From contig MEKT01000037.1 of the NCBI GenBank assembly GCA_001767435.1, forward strand, positions 25,840-89,839: a DNA stretch of 64,000 nucleotides. Reading direction: 5' to 3'. Under the pieces are notes generated by a model. It searched no databases. It worked only from the letters and a program-made list of their open reading frames with translations, and was not told where the DNA came from. Both the position numbers and the translations under genes were made by a program. The DNA comes from Acidobacteria bacterium RIFCSPLOWO2_02_FULL_65_29 (GTDB taxonomy: Bacteria; Acidobacteriota; Vicinamibacteria; Vicinamibacterales; CAVVIG01). This document shows positions 10,816 through 55,508 of the stretch, in pieces. Every line of letters begins with the position of its first letter. The stretch's first letter is position 1.

Positions 10816-10900
10816 ATCGGGGAACCTGTCTTACATCTCTTCTTCGTGTCTTGGTGGCCTGCCCGGTGGTCTGTTTCGTGCTGTCGTGTTTTCGTGGCTC

Positions 10901-12253
10901 TTATCGCCGTTGCCCCGGGTTTCCCTCGGGCACCACCGTCAGCTCCACGCGCCGATCCTTCGGCAGAAACTGCGCGGCGGCGGCGCGCACGTCGGTCGGC
11001 GACAACGAGCGGTACCGAGCCAGATCCTCGTTGAACCAGTCCGGGTTGCCGGTGTTGGTGTAGTACGCGTTCAGCTGATCGGCCTTGCCGCCGAAGCCGC
11101 CGACCCGTTCCATCCGACTGTAAAACGACGCCTCGTACTGGTTGAGCGCGCGTTCGACCTCACGGGTTGCCGGCGCCTCCGTCTGGAGCCGGGCGATCTC
11201 TTCGTCGATGATCGTCTGCAGCTCTCCGATCGTGTGTCCCGGTCGCGGCGTCGCCTCGATCACGAATGTGGACGCGAGCGCCATCGAGCCTTGAAACGCC
11301 TGGACACTCTGGGCGATCTGCAGGTCGTACACGAGCCGCTTGTAGAGTCGCGAGTTCTTGCCGCTGGTCAGGATCGACGAGACCACGTCGAGCGCGGCGT
11401 CGCCCGGCGCGTACAGCGCGGGCGTGAGCCACGCCAGGTAAAGACGCGGCAGCTGCACGCGGTCGGTGATCGTCTGTTTCTTCACGCTGGAGAGCGCCGC
11501 GCCCGGAATGGCCATCGGGTCGGGACGCGCGCCCGGCTTCACGTCGCCAAACCACTTTTCGACCAGCCTGCGCGCCGTCGCCGTGTCGATGTCGCCCGCC
11601 ACCGCGAGGCTTGCGTTGGATGGCGCGTAATACGTCTTGAAGAACGCCACCACGTCGTCGTAGCTCGCGGCCGTCAGATCCGGCATGTACCCGATGACGG
11701 GCCAGTGGTACGGATGGCCTTCGGGAAAGAGCATCTCGTTCAGCACGACGTCGGCCATGCCGTAGGGCTCGTTTTCGACGCGCTGGCGCCGCTCGTTTTT
11801 CACCACGTCGCGCTGGGCGTCCACGGTCTTGAGCGACATCGTGTCGAGCAGATAGCCCATCCGATCCGACTCGAGGAACAGCGCGAGCTCGAGCGCGTTC
11901 GAGGGGACGTTGATCCAGTAGTTGGTGCGGTCGTTGGACGTCGAGCCGTTGTTGTTGCCGCCGGCGCCTTCGAGCCACGAGTCGAACTCGCCCGGCGGCA
12001 CGTGGCCCGAGCCCATGAACATCAGGTGCTCGAACAGGTGCGCGAAGCCGGTGCGGCCCGTCTTTTCGCGCGCCGAGCCGACGTGGTACCAGACGTTCAC
12101 GCTCACGAGCGGCACGCTGTGGTCCTCGTGGAGAATCACCCGCAGGCCGTTCGGCAGCGTGAACTGCGTGTAGTCGAGTTGGATGGGCGCCGGCGTCTGA
12201 GCGGCGGCGGGCGCCGCCAGCGCCAAAGCGAGCATGCATGCGAAGCGTTTCAT
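10901..12253 (-). CDS. M16 (pitrilysin) family zinc peptidase
   Basis: Signal peptide; inverted zinc motif HLFEH (HxxEH) in GFAHLFEHLMFMGS. Confidence 0.9.
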   Translation of the reverse strand: MKRFACMLALALAAPAAAQTPAPIQLDYTQFTLPNGLRVILHEDHSVPLVSVNVWYHVGSAREKTGRTGFAHLFEHLMFMGSGHVPPGEFDSWLEGAGGNNNGSTSNDRTNYWINVPSNALELALFLESDRMGYLLDTMSLKTVDAQRDVVKNERRQRVENEPYGMADVVLNEMLFPEGHPYHWPVIGYMPDLTAASYDDVVAFFKTYYAPSNASLAVAGDIDTATARRLVEKWFGDVKPGARPDPMAIPGAALSSVKKQTITDRVQLPRLYLAWLTPALYAPGDAALDVVSSILTSGKNSRLYKRLVYDLQIAQSVQAFQGSMALASTFVIEATPRPGHTIGELQTIIDEEIARLQTEAPATREVERALNQYEASFYSRMERVGGFGGKADQLNAYYTNTGNPDWFNEDLARYRSLSPTDVRAAAAQFLPKDRRVELTVVPEGNPGQRR

Positions 12254-12831: not shown

Positions 12832-12957
12832 ACCCGTGAGGCTCGGGGCTCAAGTCCTCAAATCTTCGGGTCTCTTCGTGGCTCTCTTTTTCGTGCTTTC
12901 GTGTTTTCGTGGCTCTTCTTCGTGCCTTCGTGTCTTCGTGGCCTATAATCCGCCAAC

Positions 12958-14908: not shown

Positions 14909-17161
14909 ATGAGCAGCCTCTGTCGTGATTCCACTCCCGACCTGGTGGGCCGCGCGGGCCAGGCCCGCGGACCGCTTTCGACGCACGCCGTCCACAAGGA
15001 CGTACACATTCTCGATCTCCTGGCGGTCATCTATCGGTACCGGCGCATGGCCTTCTCGGTCTTCATCTTGACCACGATCGCCCTGATGATCCAGGGCTAC
15101 TCGGGCGTCCGGTTGTACCAGGCTAAAGCGCAGCTCCTGATCGAAGACGAGCGCTCGACGGCGATGCCGGGCATTGCGACCGGCCAGTACTACGAGGATC
15201 CTGTCCCCTACTACAACACGCAGCACCGTATCTTGCGAAGCCGCGAGCTCGCGCGGCGGGTCGTGAGGCGCCTGCAGCTCGGAACACATCCCGAGTTCAA
15301 TGGCACCGCGACGCCTCCCGTCACACTCGTGACGGCGGTACGAGCGGCGGCCGCGCGGGCGCTGCGGGGCCTGACCTTGTTGTCCGCGGCTGTCGAAGAG
15401 GAAGCGCCCACACCCGACGAGACCCCCGCTGAAGCGGCGCTCGTGGGCAACTTCCTCTCCCGGGTCGTCGTCACACCGGTCCCTGACAGCAAGCTGGTGG
15501 ACGTGTTCTTCACGGCGGCGGACCCCGCGGTGACGGCTCTGGCGGCCACCACGCTCGCCGAGGAGTACGTCGCGCAGAATCTCGAACTGAAGCAGCAGAG
15601 CACGCAGAACATGCTCGAGTGGCTCGAGAACGAAGTGGCGGCCCAGCAGACGAAGGTCGAGCAGAGCGAGCGCGATCTCGCGGAATATCGCGAGATGGAA
15701 AACGCGATGTCGCTCGACGACAAGAACAACATCGTCGTGTCGCGTCTCAACGCACTCAACGAAGCGAGCATTAGGGCTCGCACGGTTCGGATCGAGAAGG
15801 AATCGGTCAACAACCAACTCAAGGCCATCCGCGACACAAGGTCGGTAGACGCCATTCCGGTCATCACACAGAATTTGCAGATTCAGGCGCTCAGGAATCA
15901 ACTCGGTGATTTACAGCGCCAGAAAGCCAATCTCACCGAGCGCTATGGCGACAAGCACCCCGAGATGGTGAAAGTCAACGCCCAGCTTGCCGACGGGCAG
16001 CGTCAGCTCGACGTGGGGACCGCGAAGGCGCTCGAGTCGGTCAGGAACGAATACGAACGTGCGCTGATCGAGGAGCGGACACTCGCCGCCCATCTGGAGG
16101 AAGCCAAGCGAGACGCGCAGGATCTGAGCCGTAAGAGCGTCGGCTACAACGTGTTGGAACGCGAGGCGAAAAGCCATCGCACGGTCTACGAGTCGCTCCT
16201 GCAGCGCACCAACGAGTTGCGCGTGTCGAGCAACAGCCGGGCGAACAACGTTCGGCTTGTCGAGCGGGGTGAAGTGCCGGGAAGTCCTGTGACCCCGTCG
16301 GGCCGGCGCACCTGGGGCCTGTCTGTCGTGGTGGGGTTGTTCGCCGCCATCGCCGTCGCCTATGGCCTCGATTACATGAACGACACCGTCAAGACGCCCG
16401 AGGACGTCACGCGGTTTCTGAAAATGACCTTCCTCGGTCTCGTGCCGTCGGTCCGCGGCGACAAGCATCCGCTGATGGCCTCGTGGGACACACCGAAGCA
16501 CTTCGGCGAAGCGTTCCGAAACCTGCGCACAGCGATCATCGCGCTGTATCCGGGCGACGGGCCGAAGACCATGGCCGTGACGAGCGCGCAGCCGCTCGAA
16601 GGCAAGACGACGACCGCGTGCAATATCGCGTTGGCGTTGGCCTACGGCGGAATGCGAGTCCTCTTGATCGACGCCGATCTACGCCGGCCCGGTCTACACC
16701 TGTCGCTCCGTCTGACAAACGAACGGGGGCTGTCGCACGTCCTGGGCGGGCGGGCTCGTCTACGCGACGTCATCCAGCGCACTGTCGATCTGAACCTATT
16801 TGCGATCACCGCCGGTCCCACACCGTCCGAGCCGTCGGAGCTGCTGGCTTCGGAGCGGATGAAGATGCTCCTGAGCAGTCTGGCGCAGGGGCCATTCGAC
16901 TGGATCATCATCGATACCCCTCCGGTGCTCGGGGTGAGTGACGCCGTCGTCCTTACACCCTTGGTTACCGGCGTCACGTTCGTGGTCGGTGCCGAAATGA
17001 CGCGACGGCAGGTGGCTGAGCACGCAATCGAAACCATTCTGTCGAGCCGGCCAAAGCTGCTTGGCGTCGTGCTCAACAAGGTCGACTTCGCTCGGAACAA
17101 GTACTACTATTCACGCTACTACGGCCGGCAGTACGAGAACCACTACGCTGAAGCGGTCTAG
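14909..17161 (+). CDS. Polysaccharide co-polymerase / bacterial tyrosine autokinase (Wzc/GumC-type)
   Basis: Wzz-like N-terminal TM segment, a long coiled-coil periplasmic region and a second TM segment. Walker A SAQPLEGKTTTACNIA; C-terminal Tyr cluster NKYYYSRYYGRQYENHY. Confidence 0.85.
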   Translation: MSSLCRDSTPDLVGRAGQARGPLSTHAVHKDVHILDLLAVIYRYRRMAFSVFILTTIALMIQGYSGVRLYQAKAQLLIEDERSTAMPGIATGQYYEDPVPYYNTQHRILRSRELARRVVRRLQLGTHPEFNGTATPPVTLVTAVRAAAARALRGLTLLSAAVEEEAPTPDETPAEAALVGNFLSRVVVTPVPDSKLVDVFFTAADPAVTALAATTLAEEYVAQNLELKQQSTQNMLEWLENEVAAQQTKVEQSERDLAEYREMENAMSLDDKNNIVVSRLNALNEASIRARTVRIEKESVNNQLKAIRDTRSVDAIPVITQNLQIQALRNQLGDLQRQKANLTERYGDKHPEMVKVNAQLADGQRQLDVGTAKALESVRNEYERALIEERTLAAHLEEAKRDAQDLSRKSVGYNVLEREAKSHRTVYESLLQRTNELRVSSNSRANNVRLVERGEVPGSPVTPSGRRTWGLSVVVGLFAAIAVAYGLDYMNDTVKTPEDVTRFLKMTFLGLVPSVRGDKHPLMASWDTPKHFGEAFRNLRTAIIALYPGDGPKTMAVTSAQPLEGKTTTACNIALALAYGGMRVLLIDADLRRPGLHLSLRLTNERGLSHVLGGRARLRDVIQRTVDLNLFAITAGPTPSEPSELLASERMKMLLSSLAQGPFDWIIIDTPPVLGVSDAVVLTPLVTGVTFVVGAEMTRRQVAEHAIETILSSRPKLLGVVLNKVDFARNKYYYSRYYGRQYENHYAEAV

Positions 17162-17190
17162 AAGATCGCCTCCCACCGCGTATCGGGGCC

Positions 17191-17354
17191 TAGCAGCCCG
17201 TGGTGAAAGTCTGGCTGCATTCGACGGGCGATGCATCCTCGCCGGCTGCGTTGCTCCTCGCTCACATACTCCCGGTATGCTCGGTCGTCGCGCCTTGCCG
17301 GCGAGGCGCCTCGCCCGTCTCGGTGCGACGCCAGACTTTCGCCACAGGCTGCTA
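17191..17354. mobile_element. MITE-like palindromic element, copy 1 (160 bp flanked by TA)
   Basis: Terminal inverted repeats gcagcccgtggtgaaagtctggc / gccagactttcgccacaggctgc, with internal arms also complementary. About 150 of 160 nt are identical to the copy at 22917-23076. Confidence 0.6.
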
Positions 17355-17404
17355 ATGGCAGACGTCTCGCCCGCCCGTGTCATGGCTCGCGACAGGAACG
17401 CTCG

Positions 17405-17433
17405 TTGACACGGCGCGCCGCCGGCTCTATATT
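17405..17433 (+). promoter_or_regulatory. Near-consensus sigma70-type promoter for the radical SAM operon
   Basis: TTGACA (17405-17410), exactly 17-nt spacer, TATATT (17428-17433). It lies about 110 nt upstream of the first operon ATG. Confidence 0.5.
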
Positions 17434-17544: not shown

Positions 17545-18522
17545 ATGAGCGTCCGATCCGTTCCGGGCGACGCGCTGGACACGATGCGCCGCACTGCGAT
17601 GACTCGCTCGCTGTTGGGACGGTTTCCATGGGCCGGCCAGTGGGAGCTGACATGCCGCTGCAACCTCAGATGTGTGATGTGCTACACGGACTGCTTCAAT
17701 ACGTCCGCACACGTCAGGCAGGAGCTCGCCACCGAGGACATCGTTCGTATTCTCGATGAACTGCAGGAAGCCGGATGCGTCGAGCTGACGTTCACCGGAG
17801 GCGAGCCGTTGTCGCGGCCCGATTTTCTGACAATTTACGGAGCCGCACACGAGCGCGGGTTTGTCCTCACCGTCTTCACCAACGGTACGTTGATTACGCC
17901 GGCCGTTGCCGACTGCTGGGCGCTCGCCCGGCCCAGGAGCGTCGAGATTTCTGTCCACGGTGTGTCGGCCCGGGTCTTCGACGGTGTGACTCGAGTTCCT
18001 GGATCGCTCGAGCGCTGCTTGGCGGGCATCGAGCTGGTGATGAGGCGGCGGATTCCAGTCGTTTTGAAAACGGTGGGGCTGATTTCGAATTGGCACGAGA
18101 TTCTGGCGATCAAACAGTTCGTCGACTCGCTCGGCGGCGCGACGTGGCGGTTCGGCCAGTACTTGCGTGACGACCTCGCTGGCACGAGTGCTCCGTTTCA
18201 GTTTCAGCTTCCCGAGGCGAGACTGCGGACGCTCGAGCAGCAGGACCGCGAGCTCTGGGAAGCCAAGTGCGGCGAGATCGCCTGGTCCGAGTCGATCGCG
18301 CACAAGACCTGCGGTGGCGGGCAGCTGACCTTTCACATCGACGCCTACGGCCAGCTTCAGCTGTGTTCGAACAATAGGCGAGGTGGCTACGACCTGCGCG
18401 CCGGCTCATTCCGTGCCGGCTTCGACGAGGTCCTGCCAACCTTGCCCTGTCAAGGCCGAACCAGGACTCATCCGGAGACCATGCCCCTGCACGTCACGCG
18501 GCCGCGGCGGACGGCGTCGTGA
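17545..18522 (+). CDS. Radical SAM protein A (C-terminal auxiliary-cluster region reduced or disrupted)
   Basis: CX3CX2C in ELTCRCNLRCVMCY and a GGEPL SAM-binding motif. Paralog of the ORFs at 20201 and 22218. Only CGGG...C...C remains in the C-terminal region. Confidence 0.85.
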   Translation: MSVRSVPGDALDTMRRTAMTRSLLGRFPWAGQWELTCRCNLRCVMCYTDCFNTSAHVRQELATEDIVRILDELQEAGCVELTFTGGEPLSRPDFLTIYGAAHERGFVLTVFTNGTLITPAVADCWALARPRSVEISVHGVSARVFDGVTRVPGSLERCLAGIELVMRRRIPVVLKTVGLISNWHEILAIKQFVDSLGGATWRFGQYLRDDLAGTSAPFQFQLPEARLRTLEQQDRELWEAKCGEIAWSESIAHKTCGGGQLTFHIDAYGQLQLCSNNRRGGYDLRAGSFRAGFDEVLPTLPCQGRTRTHPETMPLHVTRPRRTAS

Positions 18523-18537
18523 ACTCGAGGATTCTGA

Positions 18538-20220
18538 GTGCCAACATCGGACGAGTCTCAAAGCAGGATAGCTCGCGTAGGTGTTGAACCCGTGCAGGAT
18601 ATCCGAACGGTCGAAAACCACGATGCGGCGTATGACATCTGGAAGGCCGCTGGCGCTCGAAACCGAGTTCTGGTTCATGTCGACGGGCACGTCGACTTCG
18701 AGTGGATGAACGATCACGTTGCCGATGAGCTTCTGGCCGCGCGCAGCTCAGTGGAGATCCAGCGGCTGCTTGCCGAGACGAGCGCCTGGCATTTCGACGA
18801 ACGGCCGTTGCGCGAACGGGTCACCCCCGCGAATTTCATCTATCCGGCGATAAAGGAGGGTCTCGTTCGCGAGTTCATCTGGATCATGCCCGATGCCTTC
18901 TGGGCAAGCCCCGCAGCACGTCGCGTGATTCGCGATGGTTTGGAGCAGACACTGCGCCGGGGCTCGCCAGAGGCCGGCCCCCTACGCGTGTCCAACGGCG
19001 GCATCCGTTTTCGTCTGCTGGGGTGTCCTGTGACCGCGTGTACGCTCGCCACTTTGCCTCGCATCACCGAGCCGGTGCTGCTCGATATCGACGTCGATTA
19101 TCTCCTCACCACGAATCCGGCGGGGCCGGCCCCGTACTTCCAGCGCGAGCCGGCCGAGCCGTGGCTGTGGCCCAGCGCGTTCTTCCGGCGCCTCAGGTCG
19201 ACGCGTCTGAAGACGGACCTGCTGACCATCGCGTACTCCGTGGACGACGGTTTCACGCTGCTTCGCTACAAGTACTTTGGCGATCTGCTGCGACGCGCGC
19301 TCGGCGAGGCGTCCGAACGCGTGAGCGACGCCCCGGTTTCCGGGAGCGCTGCCGAGGCGTTCGATCACGTGAGCCGAAGCCTCTCCGCTCACGACATGCT
19401 CTCGACCGGTCGCTGGTGGCGAGAAATGGTGCGTCGAGATCCTTCCTATCGCTCGGTCTACGCGATCCCTGGATGGCGGGAAGAATGCGCTGGACGCTGG
19501 GACGCCGCGCTCGACATCTACCAGCGAATGATTGAGATCGATCCGGAATGGCACGTGCCGCATCTGGGAAGGGGTCGCGCGCTCTGGCAATTTGGCCGAT
19601 ATGCGGAGGCGGAAACGGCTTTCGAAGCGGCAGCCTCGCGGAGCTCCCGAGCGACGTCAGCCACGTACTGGCTGGGTCTTTGCCGATTTCGCCGCCAAGA
19701 TCTCGAAGGGGCCTCACGCGCCTGGACCGACGCGGTTCGAGCCGACCCACGCGATGGCTCGAGCCTGCATGGTTTGGCCTGCGTGGAGGCTCAACAAGGG
19801 CAGGCGAGAGCTGGCGGCGCCCGGATTGCTCGAGGAGAACGCCGGCAGTGGAACCGGAGACGAAAGGGACTATCTCACATGACGGACCTCCACGATCCGC
19901 TCGGCACGCGCTATGAGCATGAGCCAAGCATCGTGACCCGCCGCGTCGCCGGCGAGGTCATCCTCGTGCCGACGCGCCAGATGAGCGGAGACGCTGCCCT
20001 TTTCACACTGGACGAAGTGGCAGCTTTTCTCTGGGAACGGTTGGACGGGCAGAGGACCGGCAAGGACCTCGTCGCGGCTCTGGAGTCGTCATATGCCGCT
20101 GAACCGGAACAGGCCGCCGCTGATGTGCGCACCTTTCTGGAGCAGCTCGAATCAATTGACGCAGTGCGGCGCGTGTCGGAGTCCCGCCGGGCGACGAATC
20201 ATGGCCCGGCCTCTCGCTGA
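18538..20220 (+). CDS. Multidomain ORF: UPF0489/arginase-deacetylase-like N-domain, TPR repeats and a C-terminal PqqD-type (RRE) domain
   Basis: Uninterrupted 560-codon frame. N-terminus VENHDAAYDIW...LVHVDGHVDF resembles the UPF0489 signature. TPR-like helices span aa about 290-420. The last 113 aa (from ATG 19879, preceded by aaaggga) are PqqD-like (VAGEVILVP...LFTLDEVAAFLWERLDGQRTGKDLVAAL). Confidence 0.7.
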   Translation: MPTSDESQSRIARVGVEPVQDIRTVENHDAAYDIWKAAGARNRVLVHVDGHVDFEWMNDHVADELLAARSSVEIQRLLAETSAWHFDERPLRERVTPANFIYPAIKEGLVREFIWIMPDAFWASPAARRVIRDGLEQTLRRGSPEAGPLRVSNGGIRFRLLGCPVTACTLATLPRITEPVLLDIDVDYLLTTNPAGPAPYFQREPAEPWLWPSAFFRRLRSTRLKTDLLTIAYSVDDGFTLLRYKYFGDLLRRALGEASERVSDAPVSGSAAEAFDHVSRSLSAHDMLSTGRWWREMVRRDPSYRSVYAIPGWREECAGRWDAALDIYQRMIEIDPEWHVPHLGRGRALWQFGRYAEAETAFEAAASRSSRATSATYWLGLCRFRRQDLEGASRAWTDAVRADPRDGSSLHGLACVEAQQGQARAGGARIARGERRQWNRRRKGLSHMTDLHDPLGTRYEHEPSIVTRRVAGEVILVPTRQMSGDAALFTLDEVAAFLWERLDGQRTGKDLVAALESSYAAEPEQAAADVRTFLEQLESIDAVRRVSESRRATNHGPASR

Positions 20221-21298
20221 AGAGCAGTACGGTCAGTTCAGCGCCCGCGTCTGCAGTCGCACCATCGCCGACGCGCAACCGACTCGTGTCCAGTTCGAGC
20301 TGACCTACAGGTGCAATATCCATTGCGTGCACTGCTACACCGACCCCTTCAACACCCTGGACGCTGTCGGGCGTGAGCTCGATCTGCACGAGATCTCGAG
20401 GATCTTTGACGAGCTGGCTGATGCGGGTGTGCTGTGGATGACGATGACAGGCGGTGAAGCCCTCGTGCATCCTCAGTTCCGGCGGATCTATCAGGAAGCC
20501 AAACGCCGGGGATTCATCATCAGCCTCTATTCGAACGGGACGACGGTTTCCGAGAGCCTCGCGGACTTCCTTGCCGCGGACCCGCCGTTCACGATTGACG
20601 TGAGCTGCCACGCGGCCACGAGCGGAACCTTCGACAGGATCACCCAAGTCTCCGGTTCCTTCAATCTGTTTCAGCAGGGCGTTGGTCGGCTGATGGCGAG
20701 AGCGTTGCCGCTCACGATCAAGACGAAGGCGATGACGACAAACCGGCACGAGCTCTCGCGGATCAAGACGCTGGTGGAAGACCTCGGGCTCGACTTCCAT
20801 GTCTTCACGACGATTCATCCACGTCTGAACGGGGACCTGACGTCCACCCACTACCGGCTGACACCGCGAGAGATCATCGATCTCGAGGTGGGAGAGACAG
20901 CCGATGGCTGTGAAGGTGTGTGCGGCTCGCGCGATCGGGCCGGTGCCAACACCCTGACAGAGCCTCCCTCCGATGATCGGTTGTTTCGCTGCGGGTGCGG
21001 GACCAACACCTGCACGATCAATCCCTACGGGGTTCTGCGAGCCTGCACCCATACCACCTGGCCTTCGATCGACCTGAACACCACGCCATTTGCGCAGGCG
21101 TTCGCGCGCCTTGTCAACCAAGTGCGGAATGCCCGATACACAGGCGCGTCGCCGTGCGCGGCGTGTACGGCCCATGTCTTCTGCCACAAGAACCCGGCAA
21201 TGGCCGTGCACGAAGCGGGTGCGATGGAGGCGCCGGTGACCCATTACTGTGAAGTGGCCTTTGGCAAAGCCGCGCGGCTTGGGCAGACGTGCAAATGA
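20201..21298 (+). CDS. Radical SAM/SPASM protein B
   Basis: ELTYRCNIHCVHCY cluster motif. Cys-rich tail FRCGCGTNTC...C...CAACTAHVFC...C. The start at 20201 (MARPLAEE) overlaps the previous ORF by 20 nt. Confidence 0.85.
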   Translation: MARPLAEEQYGQFSARVCSRTIADAQPTRVQFELTYRCNIHCVHCYTDPFNTLDAVGRELDLHEISRIFDELADAGVLWMTMTGGEALVHPQFRRIYQEAKRRGFIISLYSNGTTVSESLADFLAADPPFTIDVSCHAATSGTFDRITQVSGSFNLFQQGVGRLMARALPLTIKTKAMTTNRHELSRIKTLVEDLGLDFHVFTTIHPRLNGDLTSTHYRLTPREIIDLEVGETADGCEGVCGSRDRAGANTLTEPPSDDRLFRCGCGTNTCTINPYGVLRACTHTTWPSIDLNTTPFAQAFARLVNQVRNARYTGASPCAACTAHVFCHKNPAMAVHEAGAMEAPVTHYCEVAFGKAARLGQTCK

Positions 21299-22221
21299 CG
21301 GTTCGATTCCAGTTCGGACCGGCGACGATCGATCTTGTCGCTGACCGCTGGCCCGAGGATGTGACGGCCGGGCACTACGGGCCGTTCGTGTCCAACCCGG
21401 AGGGCCCCGCCGACCTCACCATCCACGTCCATCGCGATCGAGCGCCCAGTTGCGGCCGGGTTTCGCCCGCCGCGCAACTACCGACCAACTGGGCCCTGTA
21501 CCGGTGCCGATCGGGCTATCGCCTGGAAATCCTGGAGCAAGTCACATTCGCACCACGGCAGATAGTCTTGCTGGATCGATCATTGAGCCGCGCTGACGTC
21601 TACGCGGCGTCGGGAGCTGGGCTCCCAGGGTATCCGCCGGGGAGCTGGTGTCTGGCTCTGGTGATGAATCCGTTCGTGCAGTGGTGGCTCACGGCCTTCC
21701 TCGCGCTTCGAGCGCGGGGCGTGTTGCTGCATGCTTCCGCGGCGGCCTTCAATGGGGCGGGCCTTGCGTTTGCCGGACCTTCCGGCGCGGGCAAGACGAC
21801 GACCGTTCGGAGGTGTCGAGATCGCGCCGGGGCGGTCGTGCTCAACGACGAGCGGATCATCGTGTGGCGAACCGCGGAGGGGGTCAAGGTGGCTGGCACG
21901 CCCTGGCACGGGGAACTCCCCGAGGTTGCCGCCTTGGTCGTACCTCTGGTCGGGCTCTTCATGCTGACCAAGAACGCAACGAACCGCTATCTCCCGTGGC
22001 CGCCGCCACGTATGGTGGCGGGCATCATGTCGGAAGCGTTTCTCCCTATCTGGAGCGTCGAGGCCATGGCGGGCCTGCTCGAAGCGGCGGAGCACATCGT
22101 ACGCGCGGTTCCGAGCGGCGAGCTGCAGCTCGCGAACGACCGCGACGTCGCGGACTACCTGCGGCGCTTCGTGGATGTCGGGCCCAGCACGCCGTGGGCG
22201 GTCGCCGTGGGGTCGCCATGA
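21295..22221 (+). CDS. HPr-kinase-like P-loop protein (HprK-related, ScmC-like)
   Basis: LLHASAAAFNGAGLAFAGPSGAGKTTT matches the HprK C-terminal-domain P-loop context. ATGA overlap with the upstream stop; GTG alternative at 21289. Confidence 0.75.
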   Translation: MTVRFQFGPATIDLVADRWPEDVTAGHYGPFVSNPEGPADLTIHVHRDRAPSCGRVSPAAQLPTNWALYRCRSGYRLEILEQVTFAPRQIVLLDRSLSRADVYAASGAGLPGYPPGSWCLALVMNPFVQWWLTAFLALRARGVLLHASAAAFNGAGLAFAGPSGAGKTTTVRRCRDRAGAVVLNDERIIVWRTAEGVKVAGTPWHGELPEVAALVVPLVGLFMLTKNATNRYLPWPPPRMVAGIMSEAFLPIWSVEAMAGLLEAAEHIVRAVPSGELQLANDRDVADYLRRFVDVGPSTPWAVAVGSP

Positions 22222-23468
22222 ACGAGATATCGTTCGAGCGCCTGGTCTTTGGCGTGGACGACGAAGCCCGGGCCGCCCCGCATCTCGTGCAGGCGATGGT
22301 GGAGCTCACCTATGGCTGCAACCTGCGGTGTGTTCACTGCTACAACCCGACGCACGACGCGCAAGACGAGCTGCGGACCGAGGCTGTCCTGCGGATCCTA
22401 GACGAGCTGGCCCACGAGGGATGCCTCCGCGTCGGCTTTACCGGCGGCGAGCTCTTCGTTCGTCGCGATACCTTCGACATCCTGCGTCACGCAAAACGGC
22501 TCGGGATGATCCTCACGATTCTCACCAATGCGACGATGATCACATCGAAGATCGCGGATCGTCTTGCCGCGCTCGATCCCCACCAGGTCGACGTCTCGGT
22601 CTACGGCGCAAGCGCCGAGACGTATGAAACCGTCACGAGAGTCCCCGGCTCCTTCCTCCGATTTTTGAGCGGTCTGGATCGGCTCGTCGAGCGGCATGTT
22701 CGCGTGTTGCTCAAGCTCGTCCTGCTCACCGTGAACGTCCACGAGCGCCGCCAGATGCAAGAGCTTGCGATGAGCCGAAATCTTCGTTACCAGATGGCGA
22801 CCGACGTGCACCCGAGGGTTGACGGATCGATCGAGCCGCTGGCCTATCGTCTCTCGCCAGCGCAAGCGTTCGAAGTCTGGCGCGAGTCTGCCGAGCCGAT
22901 CCCGTCAGCGAGCCTAACAGCCCGTGGTGAAAGTCTGGCTGCATTCGACGGGCGATGCATCCCCGCCGGCGGCGTTGCTCCTCCCTCAAATACTCCCGGT
23001 ATTCTCGGTCGTCGCGCCTTGCCGGCGGGGCGCCTCGCCCGTCTCGGTGCGACGCCAGACGTTCACCACGGGCTGCTAACGTCTGGCGGTTCCCAGATGC
23101 GGGGGGCTTCCCGTGCGAAAGCAGAGGAACCCTCCTGTGGATTCGATGGGCGGGTGTTTCACTGTCGTTGCGGAAAATCGAATGTGGCCGTGACGCCCCA
23201 CGGCAGGCTCAATCTGTGCCTCTCGGTTTATCACCCACGATACGACCTCACACGCGGCAGCCTGAAAGACGGTTGGAAGCAGCTCGTGGATCTGGTTGCG
23301 TCGGCCAGACCAGGACCGGCCTACGAGTGCAATCGGTGCTCCCTCACCGAGCATTGCTCGCGCGGCGTGGGCGATAGCTGGCTCGCGACCGGCCAATTCG
23401 ACAATCCATGTATGCCGCACTACCGGGAGCTGGCCGAGCGCAAGGCAAGTTTCCTCAGGGAGCGGTAA
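22218..23468 (+). CDS. Radical SAM/SPASM protein C carrying an in-frame MITE-derived 54-codon insert
   Basis: ELTYGCNLRCVHCY cluster motif. SPASM-like tail HCRCG...C...ECNRCSLTEHC...C. ATGA overlap with the upstream stop. The insert lies at 22915-23078, in the linker between the core and the SPASM region. Confidence 0.85.
   Translation: MNEISFERLVFGVDDEARAAPHLVQAMVELTYGCNLRCVHCYNPTHDAQDELRTEAVLRILDELAHEGCLRVGFTGGELFVRRDTFDILRHAKRLGMILTILTNATMITSKIADRLAALDPHQVDVSVYGASAETYETVTRVPGSFLRFLSGLDRLVERHVRVLLKLVLLTVNVHERRQMQELAMSRNLRYQMATDVHPRVDGSIEPLAYRLSPAQAFEVWRESAEPIPSASLTARGESLAAFDGRCIPAGGVAPPSNTPGILGRRALPAGRLARLGATPDVHHGLLTSGGSQMRGASRAKAEEPSCGFDGRVFHCRCGKSNVAVTPHGRLNLCLSVYHPRYDLTRGSLKDGWKQLVDLVASARPGPAYECNRCSLTEHCSRGVGDSWLATGQFDNPCMPHYRELAERKASFLRER
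22915..23078. mobile_element. MITE-like palindromic element, copy 2, inside a coding region
   Basis: Same 160-bp element as 17193-17352, flanked by TA. Element plus one TA is 162 bp (54 codons), with no stop in the host frame. Confidence 0.6.
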
Positions 23469-23482
23469 CCGGAGGTCTTCTC

Positions 23483-23701
23483 ATGGAGCACGAACGCGCG
23501 CGGAAAAAGTACCACCCACCGACGATCACTCGGGTCGTCTTGCGGCCCGAGCAGGCCATTCTGAGCCAGTGCAGCACGATGGGGATGTCCGCTCGAGACC
23601 TCGGCAGCCCGAGCGTGATGACGTGTGCGTTCGGACCCGACAATTGCCGCGCGTGGGCCGGCACCGGCAGGTTTGTCGACAGCGGGTATCGCCCCTCGTA
23701 A
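23483..23701 (+). CDS. Candidate RiPP precursor peptide (72 aa)
   Basis: GGAGG at 23471-23475, 7 nt before the ATG. Peptide: MEHERARKKYHPPTITRVVLRPEQAILSQCSTMGMSARDLGSPSVMTCAFGPDNCRAWAGTGRFVDSGYRPS. It has a YxxPxI leader-like motif, 3 Cys and a C-terminal Ser. Confidence 0.55.
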   Translation: MEHERARKKYHPPTITRVVLRPEQAILSQCSTMGMSARDLGSPSVMTCAFGPDNCRAWAGTGRFVDSGYRPS

Positions 23702-23703
23702 GG

Positions 23704-24180
23704 ATGAGAGGGCTCCTGACGCGGCCGCGGCATCCAAGCGGGATTCCTGAACGGACGGGACGAATCTCCGACTATCTCGAGGTGGCGGATCTTCTCGTTT
23801 GCCAGCGAAGATTGCGCTTCCGAGTCTCGTCGGACAGCATGGTGCCCAGTCTGCGACCGGGGGATCTCGTGCGGCTCCGCCCTGTGTTCGACCGGCTCGC
23901 CGCGGGCGATCTCGTCGCGATGCGCCTGGGGGACCGCATCATCTGTCATCGCGTCACGCGCTGCTACCCTGACGAAGACGGCCGACAGTGGGTGGTGACG
24001 AAAGGCGATCGGAGCGCTGCCGAGGATTTCCCCAGTTCCGCAGCCCTGATCGTCGGTCGGGTCACCGAGGTGATTCGACCGCCGGTCTGGAATCGCCTCA
24101 TGTGGCGCACGCGCGGCTTCCTGTGCGCGCTGTTGGCGCGCCGCCGCAAAGCGTCTGAACGTCAGAGGTCACCGTCTTGA
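23704..24180 (+). CDS. S26B-type (SipW/Sec11-like) serine peptidase, candidate leader peptidase
   Basis: Motif series SDSMVPSLRPGD ... GDLVAM ... CHRV ... TKGDRSAAED parallels the archaeal/SipW-type signal peptidase boxes. It starts 2 nt after the precursor stop. Confidence 0.65.
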   Translation: MRGLLTRPRHPSGIPERTGRISDYLEVADLLVCQRRLRFRVSSDSMVPSLRPGDLVRLRPVFDRLAAGDLVAMRLGDRIICHRVTRCYPDEDGRQWVVTKGDRSAAEDFPSSAALIVGRVTEVIRPPVWNRLMWRTRGFLCALLARRRKASERQRSPS

Positions 24181-25052
24181 AATCGCCGAGCGAGCCTCGC
24201 CCAGCTCAGGCCGCTGCCGAACCCACCGAATGGGCGCGACCCTGGCGCCTTGAAGCCACAAGGCGACTGCTACTTGCCGCGCGGGGGTTGGAGTTTTTCA
24301 GCCTCGCGATCCCGCGTCCGGACGATTTGATCGGATCGGCGCACCGGTTCTACGCCAAGCCGGAAGTGGTCACCGGCATGGCGGAGAGTGCCGATGCCGA
24401 CCTGTATCCGCACGAGAAGGCCGCTCTGGAACGATTCGCTCCTCACCCGACCGATGCGCTCGTGCTGGGTTGCGGCGCGGGGCGGGAAGCGATCGCGTTG
24501 GTGAAGCGGGGCTGGAGCGTCGTGGGCCTGGACGCCGGGCCCGCGCTGATTGAGGCCGCGAAGCTGAACGCCGCTCGAGCCGACGTCCGCATCGACTTCC
24601 GCTGCCACGACATCACGCGGCCATTTCATGTCGATGTCGATCGCGTGTTCGACCTCGTCTGCATCTTCGGCGTCGTTTACAGCCTGATCCCGAGTCGTCC
24701 GCTGCGGGTGGCCACTCTCCGCACCTGTCGCACGCATCTGGCGCCTGATGGCGTGTGCGTCTTGGACTTTGCGGCCCGCGAGAACCCGACGAGCCCGCGC
24801 GAGCTTTGGGCCCACCGCTGGCGCCAGCGACTTGCTTGGGCGACCCGCGGAAATCGAGACTGTCAGATCGGTGACCACTGGTTCGCTGGCGTCCTCTGCA
24901 TGCACGCATTTGCCCATCCCGACGAAGTGTCGAAAGAGGCCGAGGAGGCCGGTTTCCATACTGAGATGTTGCGGGACCCTGGCTACCCGCCGGTCGCGGT
25001 GTTGACACACCGCCCTCACCCTCACGAAATGTCGTCTCGAGACGCCGACTGA
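24177..25052 (+). CDS. Class I SAM-dependent methyltransferase
   Basis: Motif I VLGCGAGREA and post-I VVGLD. TTGA overlap with the upstream stop. An internal ATG (MAESAD) is an alternative start. Confidence 0.8.
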   Translation: MKSPSEPRPAQAAAEPTEWARPWRLEATRRLLLAARGLEFFSLAIPRPDDLIGSAHRFYAKPEVVTGMAESADADLYPHEKAALERFAPHPTDALVLGCGAGREAIALVKRGWSVVGLDAGPALIEAAKLNAARADVRIDFRCHDITRPFHVDVDRVFDLVCIFGVVYSLIPSRPLRVATLRTCRTHLAPDGVCVLDFAARENPTSPRELWAHRWRQRLAWATRGNRDCQIGDHWFAGVLCMHAFAHPDEVSKEAEEAGFHTEMLRDPGYPPVAVLTHRPHPHEMSSRDAD

Positions 25053-39718: not shown

Positions 39719-40240
39719 GTGCGCCTTTCGCTTCGCACCTGCGAGGTCCGCTCTTGGGAGACGGCCGACGTGGTGTCGCTCGTGGCCCAGGCCAACAATC
39801 GGAACATCTGGATCAATCTGCGCGACCGCTTCCCTCATCCCTACACGAAGAGCGACGGCCAGACGTTCATTCGCGAGTCTCGCAAGATGCAACCGGAGAC
39901 CAACTTCGCCATTGCCGTCGAGGGTCTCGCCGTGGGTGGCGCAGGATTCCTGCTGCAGTCGGACGTCGACCGGGTGTCGGCCGAGATCGGCTACTGGCTG
40001 GGCGAGCCGTACTGGGGAAGGGGTATTGCCACCGAGGCGCTGGTCGCGCTGACCCGGCACGCGATCGACACGCACGGGCTGACGCGCATCTTCGCGCTGC
40101 CGTTTGCGCACAACCCCGCCTCGTGCCGCGTTCTCGAGAAGACCGGCTACGTTCTCGAGGCCAGGCTGCGCAGGAGCGCCATCAAGGACGGCCGGATCGT
40201 CGACCAGATGCAGTATGCCTACATAGTCGCTAGTCGATAG
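39719..40240 (+). CDS. GNAT family N-acetyltransferase (RimJ/RimL-like)
   Basis: GTG start. Motif YWLGEPYWGRGIATEAL...HNPASCRVLEKTGY. Confidence 0.8.
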   Translation: MRLSLRTCEVRSWETADVVSLVAQANNRNIWINLRDRFPHPYTKSDGQTFIRESRKMQPETNFAIAVEGLAVGGAGFLLQSDVDRVSAEIGYWLGEPYWGRGIATEALVALTRHAIDTHGLTRIFALPFAHNPASCRVLEKTGYVLEARLRRSAIKDGRIVDQMQYAYIVASR

Positions 40241-40256
40241 TCGTTAGTCCTGCCAA

Positions 40257-40350
40257 GTCCTCAAATCCTGAAATCCTGAAATCCTCAAATCCTCAAATCC
40301 TCAAATCCTCAAATCCTCAAATCCTCAAATCCTCAGATTCCTAGATTCTT
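40257..40350. repeat. Tandem octamer array (AAATCCTC-type, about 11-12 units)
   Basis: gtcctcaa atcctgaa atcctgaa then six perfect atcctcaa units, decaying to attcctag attcttta. Confidence 0.9.
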
Positions 40351-40420
40351 TAGATCATTAACCCGCGCATGAGTGCGGCTATACTGCAGCATGACGAAAA
40401 GGCGCGCACAGCGCGCCTGC

Positions 40421-40548
40421 GTCCCTCGACGATGCTCGGGACGCCCTGAGCCATTGTCGTCCCTCGACTGGGCTCGGGACGACCCTGAGCCAGTCGAAGG
40501 GTCGAAGGGCGAGGGAGCGGGGCGCCCTGAGCGGGGAGTCGAAGGGCG
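40421..40548. repeat. REP-like composite repeat (CCCTCGAC..GCTCGGGA..CCCTGAGC..GTCGAAGGG units), left copy
   Basis: Two and a half units. Roughly 85% identical (by eye) to 41926-42010, in the same orientation. Confidence 0.6.
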
Positions 40549-41925: not shown

Positions 41926-42010
41926 TCCCTCGACAGGCTCGGGATGCCCTGAGCTAGTCGCCCCTCGACGGTGCTCGGGACCACCCTGAGCCAGTCGAAG
42001 GGTCGAAGGG
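41926..42010. repeat. REP-like composite repeat, right copy
   Basis: tccctcgacaggctcgggatgccctgagc...ccctcgacggtgctcgggaccaccctgagccagtcgaagggtcgaaggg. Confidence 0.6.
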
Positions 42011-42145
42011 CAGAGCGCGCAGAGATCGCAGAAAAAGAGCCTGGTTTCTGCTTCAGCCACGAAGGCGCGAAGGGATCGTGTTTTCGTGGCCTACAGTTCG
42101 ACCGCAAGCCGCGGATAGCCGCGCACGGTCGCCGCCGGCGATAGT

Positions 42146-55452: not shown

Positions 55453-55508
55453 ATCCTCAGATTCTCAAATCCTCAAATCCTCAAATCCTCAAATCCTCAA
55501 ATCCTCAG
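55451..55508. repeat. Tandem octamer array (AAATCCTC, about 7 units)
   Basis: aaatcctcag attctc aaatcctc x5 ag. Same word and same strand as the array at 40257-40350. Confidence 0.9.

What the first reader, a model, noticed from the sequence alone, without database searches (positions are those of the whole stretch)
22915..23078. In-frame MITE-like insertion (162 bp, 54 codons) inside radical SAM gene C, with a sister copy just upstream of the operon promoter
A 160-bp element has about 23-nt terminal inverted repeats (gcagcccgtggtgaaagtctggc ... gccagac(t/g)ttc(g/a)ccac(a/g)ggctgc) and internal arm complementarity, so it would fold as a long hairpin. It occurs at 17193-17352 (intergenic, 50 bp before the -35 box) and at 22917-23076. 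About 150 of 160 positions are identical by manual alignment. Both copies are flanked by TA, as for Tc1/IS630-type MITE target duplications. In the second copy, the element plus one TA adds exactly 162 nt with no stop codon. The rSAM reading frame therefore continues (...PSAS-LTARGESLAAFDGRC...HHGLL-TSGGSQ...) into the SPASM-type Cys region. The insert falls in the linker between the rSAM core and the auxiliary-cluster domain, where the paralog at 20201 has an unrelated short linker. The same frame is open in copy 1 as well.
Basis: seen in the sequence. Interest (0 to 1): 0.72.

Follow-up and report, generated by a model that had tools for sequence, protein, structure and literature searches.

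The report
In-frame MITE inside a radical-SAM gene
A 158-bp hairpin-forming mobile DNA element, abundant in soil and groundwater Acidobacteria, has jumped into a radical-SAM enzyme gene without breaking the reading frame, adding 54 probably floppy amino acids between the enzyme's two domains; this kind of event is already known from other bacteria.

Summary
Two copies of a 158-nt palindromic element lie at 17194-17351 (intergenic) and 22918-23075 (inside radical-SAM gene C).

It is a true MITE. Copies have 22-nt terminal inverted repeats and near-full-length hairpins (RNA z = -11).

The target duplication is 4 bp with a YTAR preference, not TA: 27 of 75 copies have perfect direct 4-mers, against 7 expected. 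That is the IS5-type signature, not IS630/Tc1. No autonomous parent was found.

The two window copies are not special sisters. They are 94% identical to each other, while copy 2 is 98% identical to copies in other species.

Element plus duplication is 162 nt, or 54 codons. All other homologs, including positional orthologs in the same cassette, lack these residues. AlphaFold places the insert in a disordered linker between confidently folded core and SPASM-type domains.

Other copies sit in frame in unrelated real genes. Substitutions among copies show no coding constraint, so translatability looks incidental.

Verdict: a new MITE family behaving like Rickettsia palindromic elements. This is a new member of a known kind, of moderate interest.

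The parts
22918..23075 (+). MITE copy 2: a 158-nt non-autonomous element inside rSAM-C. With one copy of the target duplication it encodes residues 234-287 of the protein.
   Evidence: It differs from the oriented family consensus at 2 of 158 positions. RNA hairpin dG -107.9 kcal/mol, z = -11.2.
22914..22917 (.). Left copy of the 4-bp target-site duplication, CTAA. It is read as CTA|A in the gene (Leu233, then the first base of the next codon).
23076..23079 (.). Right copy of the 4-bp target-site duplication, CTAA.
22918..22939 (+). Left terminal inverted repeat of copy 2, CAGCCCGTGGTGAAAGTCTGGC.
   Evidence: 0 mismatches.
23054..23075 (-). Right terminal inverted repeat of copy 2.
   Evidence: 1 mismatch.
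17194..17351 (+). MITE copy 1: intergenic, same orientation as copy 2. It starts 32 nt after the stop of the Wzz/tyrosine-kinase-like gene (the flanking CTAG starts 28 nt after it) and ends 53 nt before the -35 box of the rSAM operon promoter.
   Evidence: It differs from the consensus at 7 of 158 positions. dG -100.9 kcal/mol.
17190..17193 (.). Left flank of copy 1, CTAG. This is the target duplication, with one mismatch to the right copy.
17352..17355 (.). Right flank of copy 1, CTAA.
22218..23468 (+). rSAM-C, a radical-SAM/SPASM-type enzyme gene: 416 aa with the insert, 362 aa without. The CxxxCxxC motif is at C34/C38/C41. The auxiliary-cluster cysteines are C307, C316, C318, C334, C371, C374, C380 and C398.
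17405..17433 (+). Sigma-70-like promoter candidate, TTGACA-17-TATATT, upstream of rSAM-A (start 17545).
   Evidence: 11 of 12 matches; shuffles give a mean of 0.1 sites.
17545..22221 (+). Upstream genes of the same cassette: rSAM-A (17545-18522), a TPR+PqqD protein (18538-20220), rSAM-B (20201-21298) and an ScmC/HprK-related protein (21289-22221).

Best explanation
The element is a copy of a previously undescribed MITE family of Vicinamibacterales-type Acidobacteria.

Anatomy: a 158-nt core with 22-nt terminal inverted repeats (5'-CAGCCCGTGGTGAAAGTCTGGC). It is almost fully self-complementary and far too short to encode a transposase.

Mobility: it is mobilised in trans by a DDE transposase that cuts YTAR targets with a 4-bp stagger. 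This is the IS5-group signature. The partner transposase is inferred and was not found.

The event in rSAM-C: one copy inserted at a CTAA site, read as CTA|A. Three properties kept the frame open:
- 158 + 4 = 162 is a multiple of three.
- In a coding sequence a YTAR site cannot lie with TAR as a codon.
- The YTA|R phase puts the element into its stop-free frame, which is open in 41 of 41 copies in this orientation and in 30 of 41 in the other.

Consequence for the protein: it gained 54 Gly/Ala/Arg/Pro-rich residues in a naturally variable, disordered linker. The linker lies between the radical-SAM barrel and the SPASM-type auxiliary-cluster domain, and the insert ends 20 residues before the first auxiliary Cys. 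Both domains stay intact. The most likely outcome is a tolerated, near-neutral insertion that is translated and leaves the enzyme working.

Possible RNA effect: the roughly 70-bp hairpin in the mRNA may lower or modulate expression through ribosome pausing or RNase III cleavage. This step is inference only.

Copy 1 is an independent intergenic insertion of the same family.
For: Multi-copy and mobile:
- 76 two-armed copies were recovered, 42 of them exactly 158 nt.
- The duplication is 4 bp and direct: 27 of 75 perfect against 7.0 +/- 2.4 permuted, and 55 of 75 with at most one mismatch. Non-palindromic 4-mers repeat directly 14 times and inverted 0 times. YTAR is found in 42 of 75 left flanks.
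- IS5 makes YTAR duplications (PMC10359306).

Family homogeneity:
- Median identity to the oriented consensus is 95.6%. Copy 2 is 98.7% identical to it.

Insertion rather than ancestral sequence:
- Of the 120 best-listed homologs (360 in all), only P0001 carries the insert, and its 90%-identity cluster is the only one that does. The others are about 290-406 aa, apart from one 674-aa fusion protein.
- The alignment shows a clean 54-aa gap at the site. Removing the insert restores a linker of about 24 aa, like the orthologs.
- P0007 and P0010 are positional orthologs in the same cassette, and no arm of the element occurs in those loci.

Tolerated position:
- AlphaFold2 gives mean pLDDT 81.6 and pTM 0.81. 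The only low-confidence segment (pLDDT <50) is residues 233-307. Both domains have 10-residue block means mostly above 90, apart from residues 31-50 (about 67).
- Full-length fold matches are BlsE, PqqE, SuiB, anSME and CteB.
- All invariant residues of the C-terminal domain are retained.
- The insert-free gene has only two YTAR sites, both in the YTA|R phase. The occupied one is the linker site.

Family behaviour:
- Other copies lie in frame in ORFs that carry real domains: Helicase_C/DrmD-like, FG-GAP, TMEM260-like, TPR, DUF1028, ThuA/EF-hand, Peripla_BP_2 and a TIGR01210-like radical-SAM protein.
- 881 protein-cluster representatives contain the peptide at E <= 1e-3.

Not an artefact:
- The copies are identical in three further assemblies.
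Against: - No autonomous element with these termini was found in about 0.8 Mb of held loci. The IS5 assignment therefore rests on the duplication alone. IS701-family elements also make exact 4-bp duplications (PMC2266710), although their published terminal consensus does not fit.
- No empty-site allele of this gene was recovered. The nearest insert-free ortholog is only about 65% identical.
- All insert-bearing sequences come from one population at about 99.95% identity. There is no evolutionary depth to show purifying selection after the insertion.
- With only 2 differences from the consensus, the copy could be so young that an inactivated gene would not yet have decayed.
- There is no transcript, protein or activity evidence.
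- A hairpin of -108 kcal/mol inside a coding region could be strongly detrimental to expression.
Confidence: 0.8

Rival explanations
1. This is the first reader's version: a Tc1/IS630-type MITE, 160 nt long, that duplicates a TA target, with the two window copies being sister copies.
For: TA is present on both sides of both copies. TA is also the invariant core of most flanks: T at position -3 in 61 of 75 copies and A at position -2 in 62 of 75.
Against: - The bases outside the TA are duplicated as well. CTAA...CTAA occurs 5 times and TTAG...TTAG 3 times, and GTAA, CTAT, TTTA, TAAA, TTGA and CAAG each repeat directly.
- Non-palindromic 4-mers show 14 direct matches and 0 inverted matches.
- Perfect 4-mers occur in 27 of 75 copies against 7 expected.
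- Copy 2 is closer to copies in other species (98.1%) than to copy 1 (94.3%).
Confidence: 0.03
2. The insertion has inactivated rSAM-C or severely reduced its output. The frame is open only because the element is GC-rich, has a 3n length and arrived recently, so the gene is a young pseudogene that has not yet decayed.
For: - Copy 2 differs from the family consensus at only 2 of 158 positions.
- An open frame is expected by chance in about 39% of shuffles.
- Substitutions among copies show no coding constraint.
- The very stable hairpin could block translation or attract RNase III.
- The cassette has two paralogous radical-SAM enzymes that might compensate.
- Orthologous cassettes in relatives are riddled with IS elements.
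Against: - The insert is in a linker that is poorly conserved and variable in length among orthologs and is predicted to be disordered.
- The folded domains and all invariant Cys residues are intact.
- The allele is fixed in four independent assemblies from different samples.
- Several unrelated genes in other genomes keep comparable in-frame copies.
Confidence: 0.15
3. The insertion has been co-opted. The hairpin acts as a regulatory RNA element inside the operon, for example as a processing or stability site that separates rSAM-C and downstream genes from upstream genes. Alternatively, the 54-aa loop has gained a role in the enzyme.
For: The hairpin is strong and well preserved. From my own knowledge, not checked here: Correia and ERIC elements are processed in mRNA by RNase III or RNase E. 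The MITE review cited notes regulatory roles for MITEs (PMC10969869).
Against: - There is no conservation beyond a single population.
- No Rfam match was found.
- No promoter-like site, and no terminator-like site on the gene's strand, lies in or next to the element.
- The peptide shows no selection signal across the family.
- Nothing distinguishes this copy from the intergenic ones.
Confidence: 0.04
4. This is not a transposon. It would instead be a REP/BIME-like palindrome spread by a RAYT (tyrosine-type) transposase, or ancestral protein sequence, or an assembly chimera.
For: The element is palindromic, GC-rich, abundant and mostly extragenic.
Against: - A 4-bp target duplication with a sequence preference is present.
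- At 158 nt with discrete ends it is far larger than the 20-40 bp reported for REPs (PMC3733652).
- Orthologs lack it.
- It is identical in four assemblies.
Confidence: 0.02

Closest known systems
Rickettsia palindromic elements (RPEs; Ogata et al. 2000 and 2002, as summarised in PMC10969869)
   Same: RPEs are palindromic repeats of about 150 bp that occur in many copies and are repeatedly found inserted in frame in unrelated protein-coding genes. They add a peptide segment at positions judged compatible with the protein fold. Here the length with duplication is 3n, the frame is stop-free, and the insert lies in a disordered interdomain linker. Other copies are in frame in helicase, FG-GAP, glycosyltransferase, TPR and radical-SAM genes.
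   Different: The present family has sharp terminal inverted repeats and a 4-bp YTAR duplication, so it is a classical cut-and-paste MITE. It occurs in GC-rich, presumably free-living soil and groundwater Acidobacteria, not in AT-rich obligate intracellular Rickettsia. Most copies appear to be intergenic. Sequence similarity to RPEs was not tested directly.
IS5-group insertion sequences (IS5 family) and MITEs derived from them
   Same: A 4-bp target-site duplication with the YTAR motif, which is documented for IS5 (PMC10359306). Here CTAG, TTAA, CTAA and TTAG dominate the flanks.
   Different: No transposase-bearing parent with these termini was found. The element begins with 5'-CAG. From memory, IS5-group ends are listed as GA/GG-type, so the family link is unproven. 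IS701-family elements also give exact 4-bp duplications (PMC2266710).
Correia elements (Neisseria), ERIC/IRU (enterobacteria) and QMITE1/2 (Coxiella)
   Same: These are small hairpin-forming MITEs of about 100-200 bp. They are mostly intergenic but sometimes intragenic with in-frame fusions (PMC10969869, PMC5896051). They can be co-transcribed with neighbouring genes.
   Different: They have different ends and duplications: TA for Correia and ERIC (my own knowledge), and 7-9 bp direct repeats for QMITE2 (PMC10969869). They occur in different phyla. No promoter or terminator activity is indicated for this copy.
Radical-SAM/SPASM peptide-maturase cassettes, SynChlorMet (Scm) type
   Same: The host operon has three radical-SAM proteins, a PqqD-like protein and an ScmC/HprK-related protein. 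The fold of rSAM-C matches SPASM/twitch enzymes.
   Different: All NCBIfam scores are far below the curated cut-offs. No precursor peptide was identified. This entry describes the target of the insertion, not the nature of the finding.

Membership tests
[quoted passage not shown] | Small size (tens to a few hundred bp) and no capacity to encode a transposase. | tested here: met
   The core is 158 nt and variants range from 83 to 318 nt. The open frames encode at most 52 aa of low-complexity peptide.
[quoted passage not shown] | Terminal inverted repeats. | tested here: met
   The arms are 22 nt with 0-2 mismatches in the window. The termini CAGCCCGTGG...CCACGGGCTG are conserved in 75 copies.
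[quoted passage not shown] | Target-site duplication flanking the copies. | tested here: met
   The duplication is 4 bp and direct. It is perfect in 27 of 75 copies against 7.0 expected, and 0 of 20,000 permutations reach 27.
[quoted passage not shown] | Many dispersed copies per genome. | tested here: met
881 protein clusters carry the peptide.
[quoted passage not shown] | A related autonomous IS with matching ends that supplies the transposase. | tested here: inconclusive
   No pair of arms 0.7-4 kb apart with a duplication was found in about 0.8 Mb of held loci. Unpaired arms are contig ends or truncations. Whole genomes could not be scanned.
   The duplication spans 4 bp. The outer Y and R positions co-vary in direct register in 57 and 58 of 75 copies, against about 34-35 expected from the position-specific base frequencies (my own calculation). 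Non-palindromic 4-mers repeat directly 14 times and inverted 0 times.
IS5 family, IS5 group (as source of the transposase) | A 4-bp duplication at YTAR targets. | tested here: met
   Among the perfect duplications, CTAG occurs 7 times, TTAA 6, CTAA 5 and TTAG 3. YTAR is found in 42 of 75 left flanks. The motif is cited for IS5 in PMC10359306.
IS5 family, IS5 group (as source of the transposase) | A DDE (DDE_Tnp_1-type) transposase bounded by the same terminal repeats. | not testable with these tools
No parent is present in the held loci.
IS701 family (alternative source) | An exact 4-bp duplication, and the terminal consensus ---YACT-Y--YR (PMC2266710). | tested here: inconclusive
   The 4-bp duplication is met. 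Positions 4-7 of the arm are CCCG, not YACT. The paper states that its consensus does not represent the whole family.
Rickettsia palindromic elements | Palindromic repeats recurrently inserted in frame in protein-coding genes. | tested here: met
   rSAM-C is one case. At least 8 further copies lie in frame in ORFs with Pfam or NCBIfam domains.
Rickettsia palindromic elements | Sequence membership in one of the RPE families, and restriction to Rickettsia. | not tested
   No RPE sequences were compared. Every copy found is on a MAG contig, and nearly all are labelled Acidobacteriota or Vicinamibacterales. The element is therefore analogous to RPEs, not a member.
REP/BIME elements | Palindromes of 20-40 bp, which in my recollection lack a target duplication and are linked to RAYT transposases. 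| tested here: not met
   The element is 158 nt with a 4-bp duplication. The REP size is from PMC3733652.
Radical-SAM enzyme with a SPASM/twitch auxiliary domain (host gene) | A CxxxCxxC radical-SAM motif, plus a C-terminal Cys-rich motif (Cx9-15Gx4C ... Cx2Cx5C ...) and the matching fold. | tested here: met
   Pfam Radical_SAM matches at 2.1e-23. C34/C38/C41 and C316, C318, C334, C371, C374 and C380 are invariant in 108 homologs. Foldseek hits are BlsE, PqqE, SuiB, anSME and CteB. The Pfam SPASM model itself did not hit.

The most novel reading that the evidence does not exclude
This MITE family may be a systematic source of in-frame protein insertions in Vicinamibacterales, an RPE-like phenomenon in GC-rich, presumably free-living bacteria.

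On this reading, its geometry has been shaped by selection for survival inside coding sequence in gene-dense genomes. The relevant features are:
- core plus duplication is 3n;
- the target phase YTA|R is the only phase that leads into a stop-free frame;
- that frame is open in both orientations;
- the nested modules of 39-45 nt are also multiples of three.

The inserted disordered segments, including the one in rSAM-C, would be translated and retained in working proteins.
Probability: 0.15. Interest if true: 0.6.

Novelty: new member of a known kind. Interest (0 to 1): 0.38.

Why it matters
It adds a well-defined, abundant and apparently undescribed MITE family in Vicinamibacterales, a major soil lineage known largely from MAGs. 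I found no Rfam match and no mention in the literature searched.

There are three practical consequences:
- The element breaks short-read assemblies. Several contigs end inside copies.
- It seeds hundreds of spurious or extended ORF calls.
- It can be mistaken for protein sequence in enzyme families such as radical-SAM/SPASM maturases.

Biologically, in-frame, fold-compatible insertion of palindromic selfish DNA is best known from Rickettsia. Here it also occurs in GC-rich, presumably free-living bacteria, and the codon-phase logic of a YTAR target explains why. For the rSAM cassette itself, the insert is most likely a tolerated linker expansion.

Tried and rejected
1. GC3 periodicity in 210-nt flanks, used to classify copies as intragenic or intergenic. 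It failed its positive control: window copy 2 was called non-coding. I discarded it.
2. Word-indexed protein search with the 54-aa peptide. It returned only short ORFs of 40-95 aa and missed even P0001, so it says nothing about long carriers. The exhaustive search replaced it.
3. Empty-site search among the held loci, using flanks joined across one duplication copy. Nothing was found.
4. Empty-allele search in JGI metagenomes with a wobble-degenerate junction pattern. It found 0 hits. The control showed the lineage is essentially absent from that collection, with one relative at 30% identity, so the null result is uninformative.
5. Search for an autonomous parent. I looked for arm pairs with up to 7 mismatches, 0.7-4 kb apart, with a 4-bp duplication, and inspected 34 unpaired arms. 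All were contig ends, truncations or degenerate short copies.
6. Viral contigs, plasmids and Rfam. No match to the element in any of them.
7. My first family consensus and frame counts mixed the two orientations and were wrong in the central region. I redid them after orienting the copies.
8. Codon-position periodicity and synonymous/non-synonymous counts among 41 copies. No coding signal was found (chi-square p = 0.62), which argues against selection on the peptide.
9. Strain comparison to date the insertion. The assemblies are 99.95-99.99% identical with no differences in either copy, so this gave no time depth.
10. The apparent excess of size classes with (length + 4) divisible by 3. It largely reflects nested modules of about 39-45 nt inserted at several positions in the 158-nt core, so the classes may not be independent events. 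I do not count it as evidence.
Full report
**1. The observation**

| | Element | Left flank | Right flank |
|---|---|---|---|
| Copy 1 | 17194-17351 | CTAG (17190-17193) | CTAA (17352-17355) |
| Copy 2 | 22918-23075 | CTAA (22914-22917) | CTAA (23076-23079) |

- The copies match at 149 of 158 positions.
- A search for the 22-nt arm CAGCCCGTGGTGAAAGTCTGGC with up to three mismatches returns only the four arms in the 64-kb window. None is expected by chance.
- As RNA, copy 2 folds into a single near-perfect hairpin: -107.9 kcal/mol, z = -11.2 against dinucleotide shuffles.
- The radical-SAM gene C reads through the element without a stop, from ATG 22218 to stop 23466-23468, giving 416 aa.
- The equivalent frame of copy 1 is also open (ORF 17061-17408).
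- A strong sigma-70-like promoter candidate (TTGACA-17-TATATT) lies 53 nt after copy 1.

**2. It is a multi-copy mobile element**

These come from 23 MAGs. Almost all are labelled Acidobacteria, Acidobacteriota, Vicinamibacterales, gp6 or Luteitalea. One MAG is labelled 'delta proteobacterium' and one short contig 'Elusimicrobia'.

The loci yielded 76 two-armed copies, of which 42 are exactly 158 nt. After orienting the copies, the median identity to the consensus is 95.6%. Copy 2 differs from it at 2 positions and copy 1 at 7.

Copy 2 is 98.1% identical to copies in other species-level MAGs (L091 and L062). It is only 94.3% identical to copy 1. The two window copies are therefore independent insertions of one widespread, young-looking family, not sisters.

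Longer variants (197, 203, 236 and 281 nt) are the same core carrying nested GC-rich palindromic modules of 39-45 nt at several positions. Many contigs end inside copies (L102 begins inside copy 1), which is typical of a repeat that breaks short-read assemblies.

**3. Ends and target**

All copies begin with CAGCCCGTGG and end with CCACGGGCTG. The four bases outside are directly repeated:

- 27 of 75 copies have perfect repeats, against 7.0 +/- 2.4 in 20,000 permutations, none of which reaches 27.
- 55 of 75 have at most one mismatch.
- Among the perfect repeats, CTAG (7), TTAA (6), CTAA (5) and TTAG (3) dominate.
- Rare targets (GTAA, CTAT, TTTA, TAAA, TTGA, CAAG) are also duplicated directly.
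- Non-palindromic 4-mers match in direct register 14 times and in inverted register never.

The duplication is therefore 4 bp at YTAR, not TA. The element is 158 nt + 4, not 160 nt + 2.

YTAR is the motif reported for IS5 (PMC10359306). IS701-family elements also make exact 4-bp duplications, but their published terminal consensus (---YACT-Y--YR) does not fit this arm (PMC2266710). IS630/Tc1 is excluded.

I could not find the autonomous partner:

- no arm pair 0.7-4 kb apart with a duplication exists in the held loci;
- unpaired arms are contig ends or truncated copies;
- there is no match in viral contigs, plasmids or Rfam.

**4. The insertion in rSAM-C**

The protein search returned 360 homologs. 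The only full-length ones carrying the insert belong to one 90%-identity cluster: P0001, P0121 (= NCBI OFW29525.1, from 'Acidobacteria bacterium RIFCSPLOWO2_02_FULL_65_29') and P0122. Two fragments in the cluster are broken at the element. The other listed homologs are about 290-406 aa, apart from one 674-aa fusion protein.

In the alignment, the 54 residues TARGES...HHGLL (234-287) face a clean gap. The gap lies in a poorly conserved stretch between WRxES and EExCG..FHCRCG. Removing them leaves a linker of about 24 aa, like those of the orthologs.

P0007 and P0010 are positional orthologs. Their loci show the same order: rSAM, PqqD, rSAM, ScmC, the rSAM-C ortholog, a small ORF, a methyltransferase and NTP_transf_5. 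They contain no arm of the element.

AlphaFold2 with 108 homologs gives mean pLDDT 81.6 and pTM 0.81. The only segment below pLDDT 50 is residues 233-307, which is the insert plus the native linker. Both domains have 10-residue block means mostly above 90, apart from residues 31-50 at about 67. Full-length structural neighbours are the SPASM/twitch enzymes BlsE, PqqE, SuiB, anSME and CteB.

The radical-SAM CxxxCxxC motif is invariant across the family and retained here. So are six of the eight C-terminal cysteines. C307 and C398 are nearly invariant (at least 90%) and also retained. The insert ends 20 residues before the first auxiliary-cluster cysteine.

The insert-bearing allele is identical in three further assemblies from different samples, at 99.95-99.99% identity over 13-17 kb. 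That rules out a chimera but gives no time depth.

**5. Why the frame stays open**

This part follows directly from the sequence.

- Element plus duplication is 162 nt, a multiple of three.
- In a coding sequence a YTAR site cannot lie with TAR as a codon. Only the phases YTA|R and xYT|ARx are possible.
- From YTA|R, the element is read from its third base. That frame is open in 41 of 41 oriented copies, and in 30 of 41 for the opposite orientation.
- From xYT|ARx, the reading hits TGA inside the arm (GTGGTGAAAG), which closes the frame in 40 of 41 copies.
- The insert-free rSAM-C has only two YTAR sites, both in phase YTA|R. One is in the catalytic core (nt 181) and one in the linker (nt 697). 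The element occupies the linker site.

Other copies behave in the same way. Of the 31 ORFs that span a copy with at least 60 codons before it and 40 after it, 28 are in this phase. Ten of these ORFs were tested against Pfam, and eight carry real domains. Two of them were further confirmed by NCBIfam, which also placed a ninth carrier:

| Locus | Host protein | Source |
|---|---|---|
| L029 | Helicase_C / DrmD-like SNF2 | |
| L095, L085 | FG-GAP | |
| L067 | TMEM260-like | |
| L003 | membrane protein with TPR | |
| L031 | DUF1028 | |
| L032 | ThuA / EF-hand | |
| L041 | Peripla_BP_2 (a different open frame) | |
| L027 | TIGR01210-like radical-SAM protein carrying a 203-nt variant in reverse orientation | |

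An exhaustive search finds the peptide in 881 protein-cluster representatives at E <= 1e-3. Most are short ORFs that are probably spurious or over-extended calls.

**6. Is the coding compatibility selected?**

Probably not.

- An open frame is expected in 39% of composition-matched shuffles.
- Substitutions among the 41 copies are spread evenly over codon positions in the open frame (96, 112 and 107; chi-square p = 0.62).
- The synonymous to non-synonymous ratio in that frame (70:204) is no better than in the closed frames.
- The apparent excess of 3n size classes largely reflects nested modules of about 39-45 nt in the 158-nt core, so the classes may not be independent events.

**7. Interpretation**

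Shown:
- it is a MITE with a 4-bp YTAR duplication;
- it is an insertion that orthologs lack;
- it lies in frame in a variable, predicted-disordered interdomain linker;
- the downstream domain is intact;
- the allele is fixed in one population;
- other copies of the family lie in frame in other genes.

Inferred:
- mobilisation by an IS5-type DDE transposase in trans;
- translation of the insert and retained enzyme function;
- a possible dampening of expression by the mRNA hairpin.

The main rival is that the gene is a very young pseudogene. I cannot exclude this, because no diverged insert-bearing relatives exist in the data and there is no expression evidence.

**8. Comparison with what is known**

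In-frame MITE insertions are an established phenomenon. Rickettsia palindromic elements are the extreme case, and ERIC, BOX and QMITE elements are further examples (PMC10969869, PMC5896051).

The present element works like an RPE at the protein level, but it is a classical cut-and-paste MITE with terminal repeats and a duplication. I found no description of this family. The MITE review does not mention Acidobacteria. A large MITE survey mentions Acidobacteriae only for phage-borne MITEs. Rfam has no match.

I therefore file it as a new member of a known kind.

**9. Verdict**

The reading as a MITE, in frame, in the linker is right. The TA/IS630 assignment and the 'sister copy' reading are wrong.
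- Interest is moderate (0.38). It is useful for annotating Vicinamibacterales genomes and as a second, mechanistically transparent example of RPE-like behaviour. It is not a surprise to specialists in mobile elements.

Noticed in passing
window 40231-40368 and 55427-55540: There are two arrays of an 8-nt tandem repeat, AAATCCTC, with about 11 and about 8 units, 15 kb apart (family D1). Similar octamer runs (AATCTGAA-like) abut a truncated copy of the MITE in L090.
   Followed up: no
window 40456-40510 and 41957-42011: A 55-nt repeat, 93% identical between its two copies, with internal complementarity (GTCGTCCC...GGGACGAC). It may belong to another small repeat family (D6).
   Followed up: no
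window 10870-10902, 12885-12917, 12914-12946: A T-rich 33-nt repeat, TCTGTTTCGTGCTGTCGTGTTTTCGTGGCTCTT, present three times. This is unusual in a GC-rich sequence (D4).
   Followed up: no
L040 7453-7688, L050 3991-4226, L033 4184-4419, L009, L010, L067 1581-1777, L027 5046-5248, L099 5731-5933: The longer MITE variants are the 158-nt core with nested GC-rich palindromic modules of 39-45 nt, for example GGGGCCCCCAGCGCGGCTGCCGCGCTGGGGACCCC. The modules sit at three or more different positions, and one is flanked by a duplicated TTCG. This looks like a second, smaller mobile palindrome nesting in the first. It is absent from the window. In the held loci it occurs only inside MITE copies.
   Followed up: partly
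window 17545-25052; L101-L106: The host operon resembles a SynChlorMet-type peptide-modification cassette. It has three radical-SAM proteins, a TPR+PqqD protein, an ScmC/HprK-related protein (PF27840), a small 72-aa ORF after rSAM-C, a signal-peptidase-like ORF and a methyltransferase. All NCBIfam scores are below the curated cut-offs, and no precursor peptide was identified.
   Followed up: partly
L104 1698-2975, 4311-5419, 15672-16799; L106 2325-3530: In the closest insert-free relatives, the orthologous cassette is interrupted by IS256-type (Transposase_mut) and IS3-type (rve) elements, and several cassette genes are called as fragments. The locus seems to be a hotspot for mobile elements, or else the long-read assemblies carry frameshift errors.
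   Followed up: no
L102 start (window 17298); P0123 and P0124: Independent short-read assemblies break inside the MITE copies. Gene callers then produce truncated or restarted rSAM-C fragments of 286 aa and 123 aa. This is a practical annotation hazard.
   Followed up: yes
L001, L024, L038, L068 (CAWDHA01) and L082 (JAHFCE01): Copies of the element occur in a MAG labelled 'uncultured delta proteobacterium' and on a 3.6-kb contig of an 'Elusimicrobia' MAG. Mislabelling or mis-binning seems more likely than true cross-phylum spread, but horizontal transfer was not excluded.
   Followed up: no
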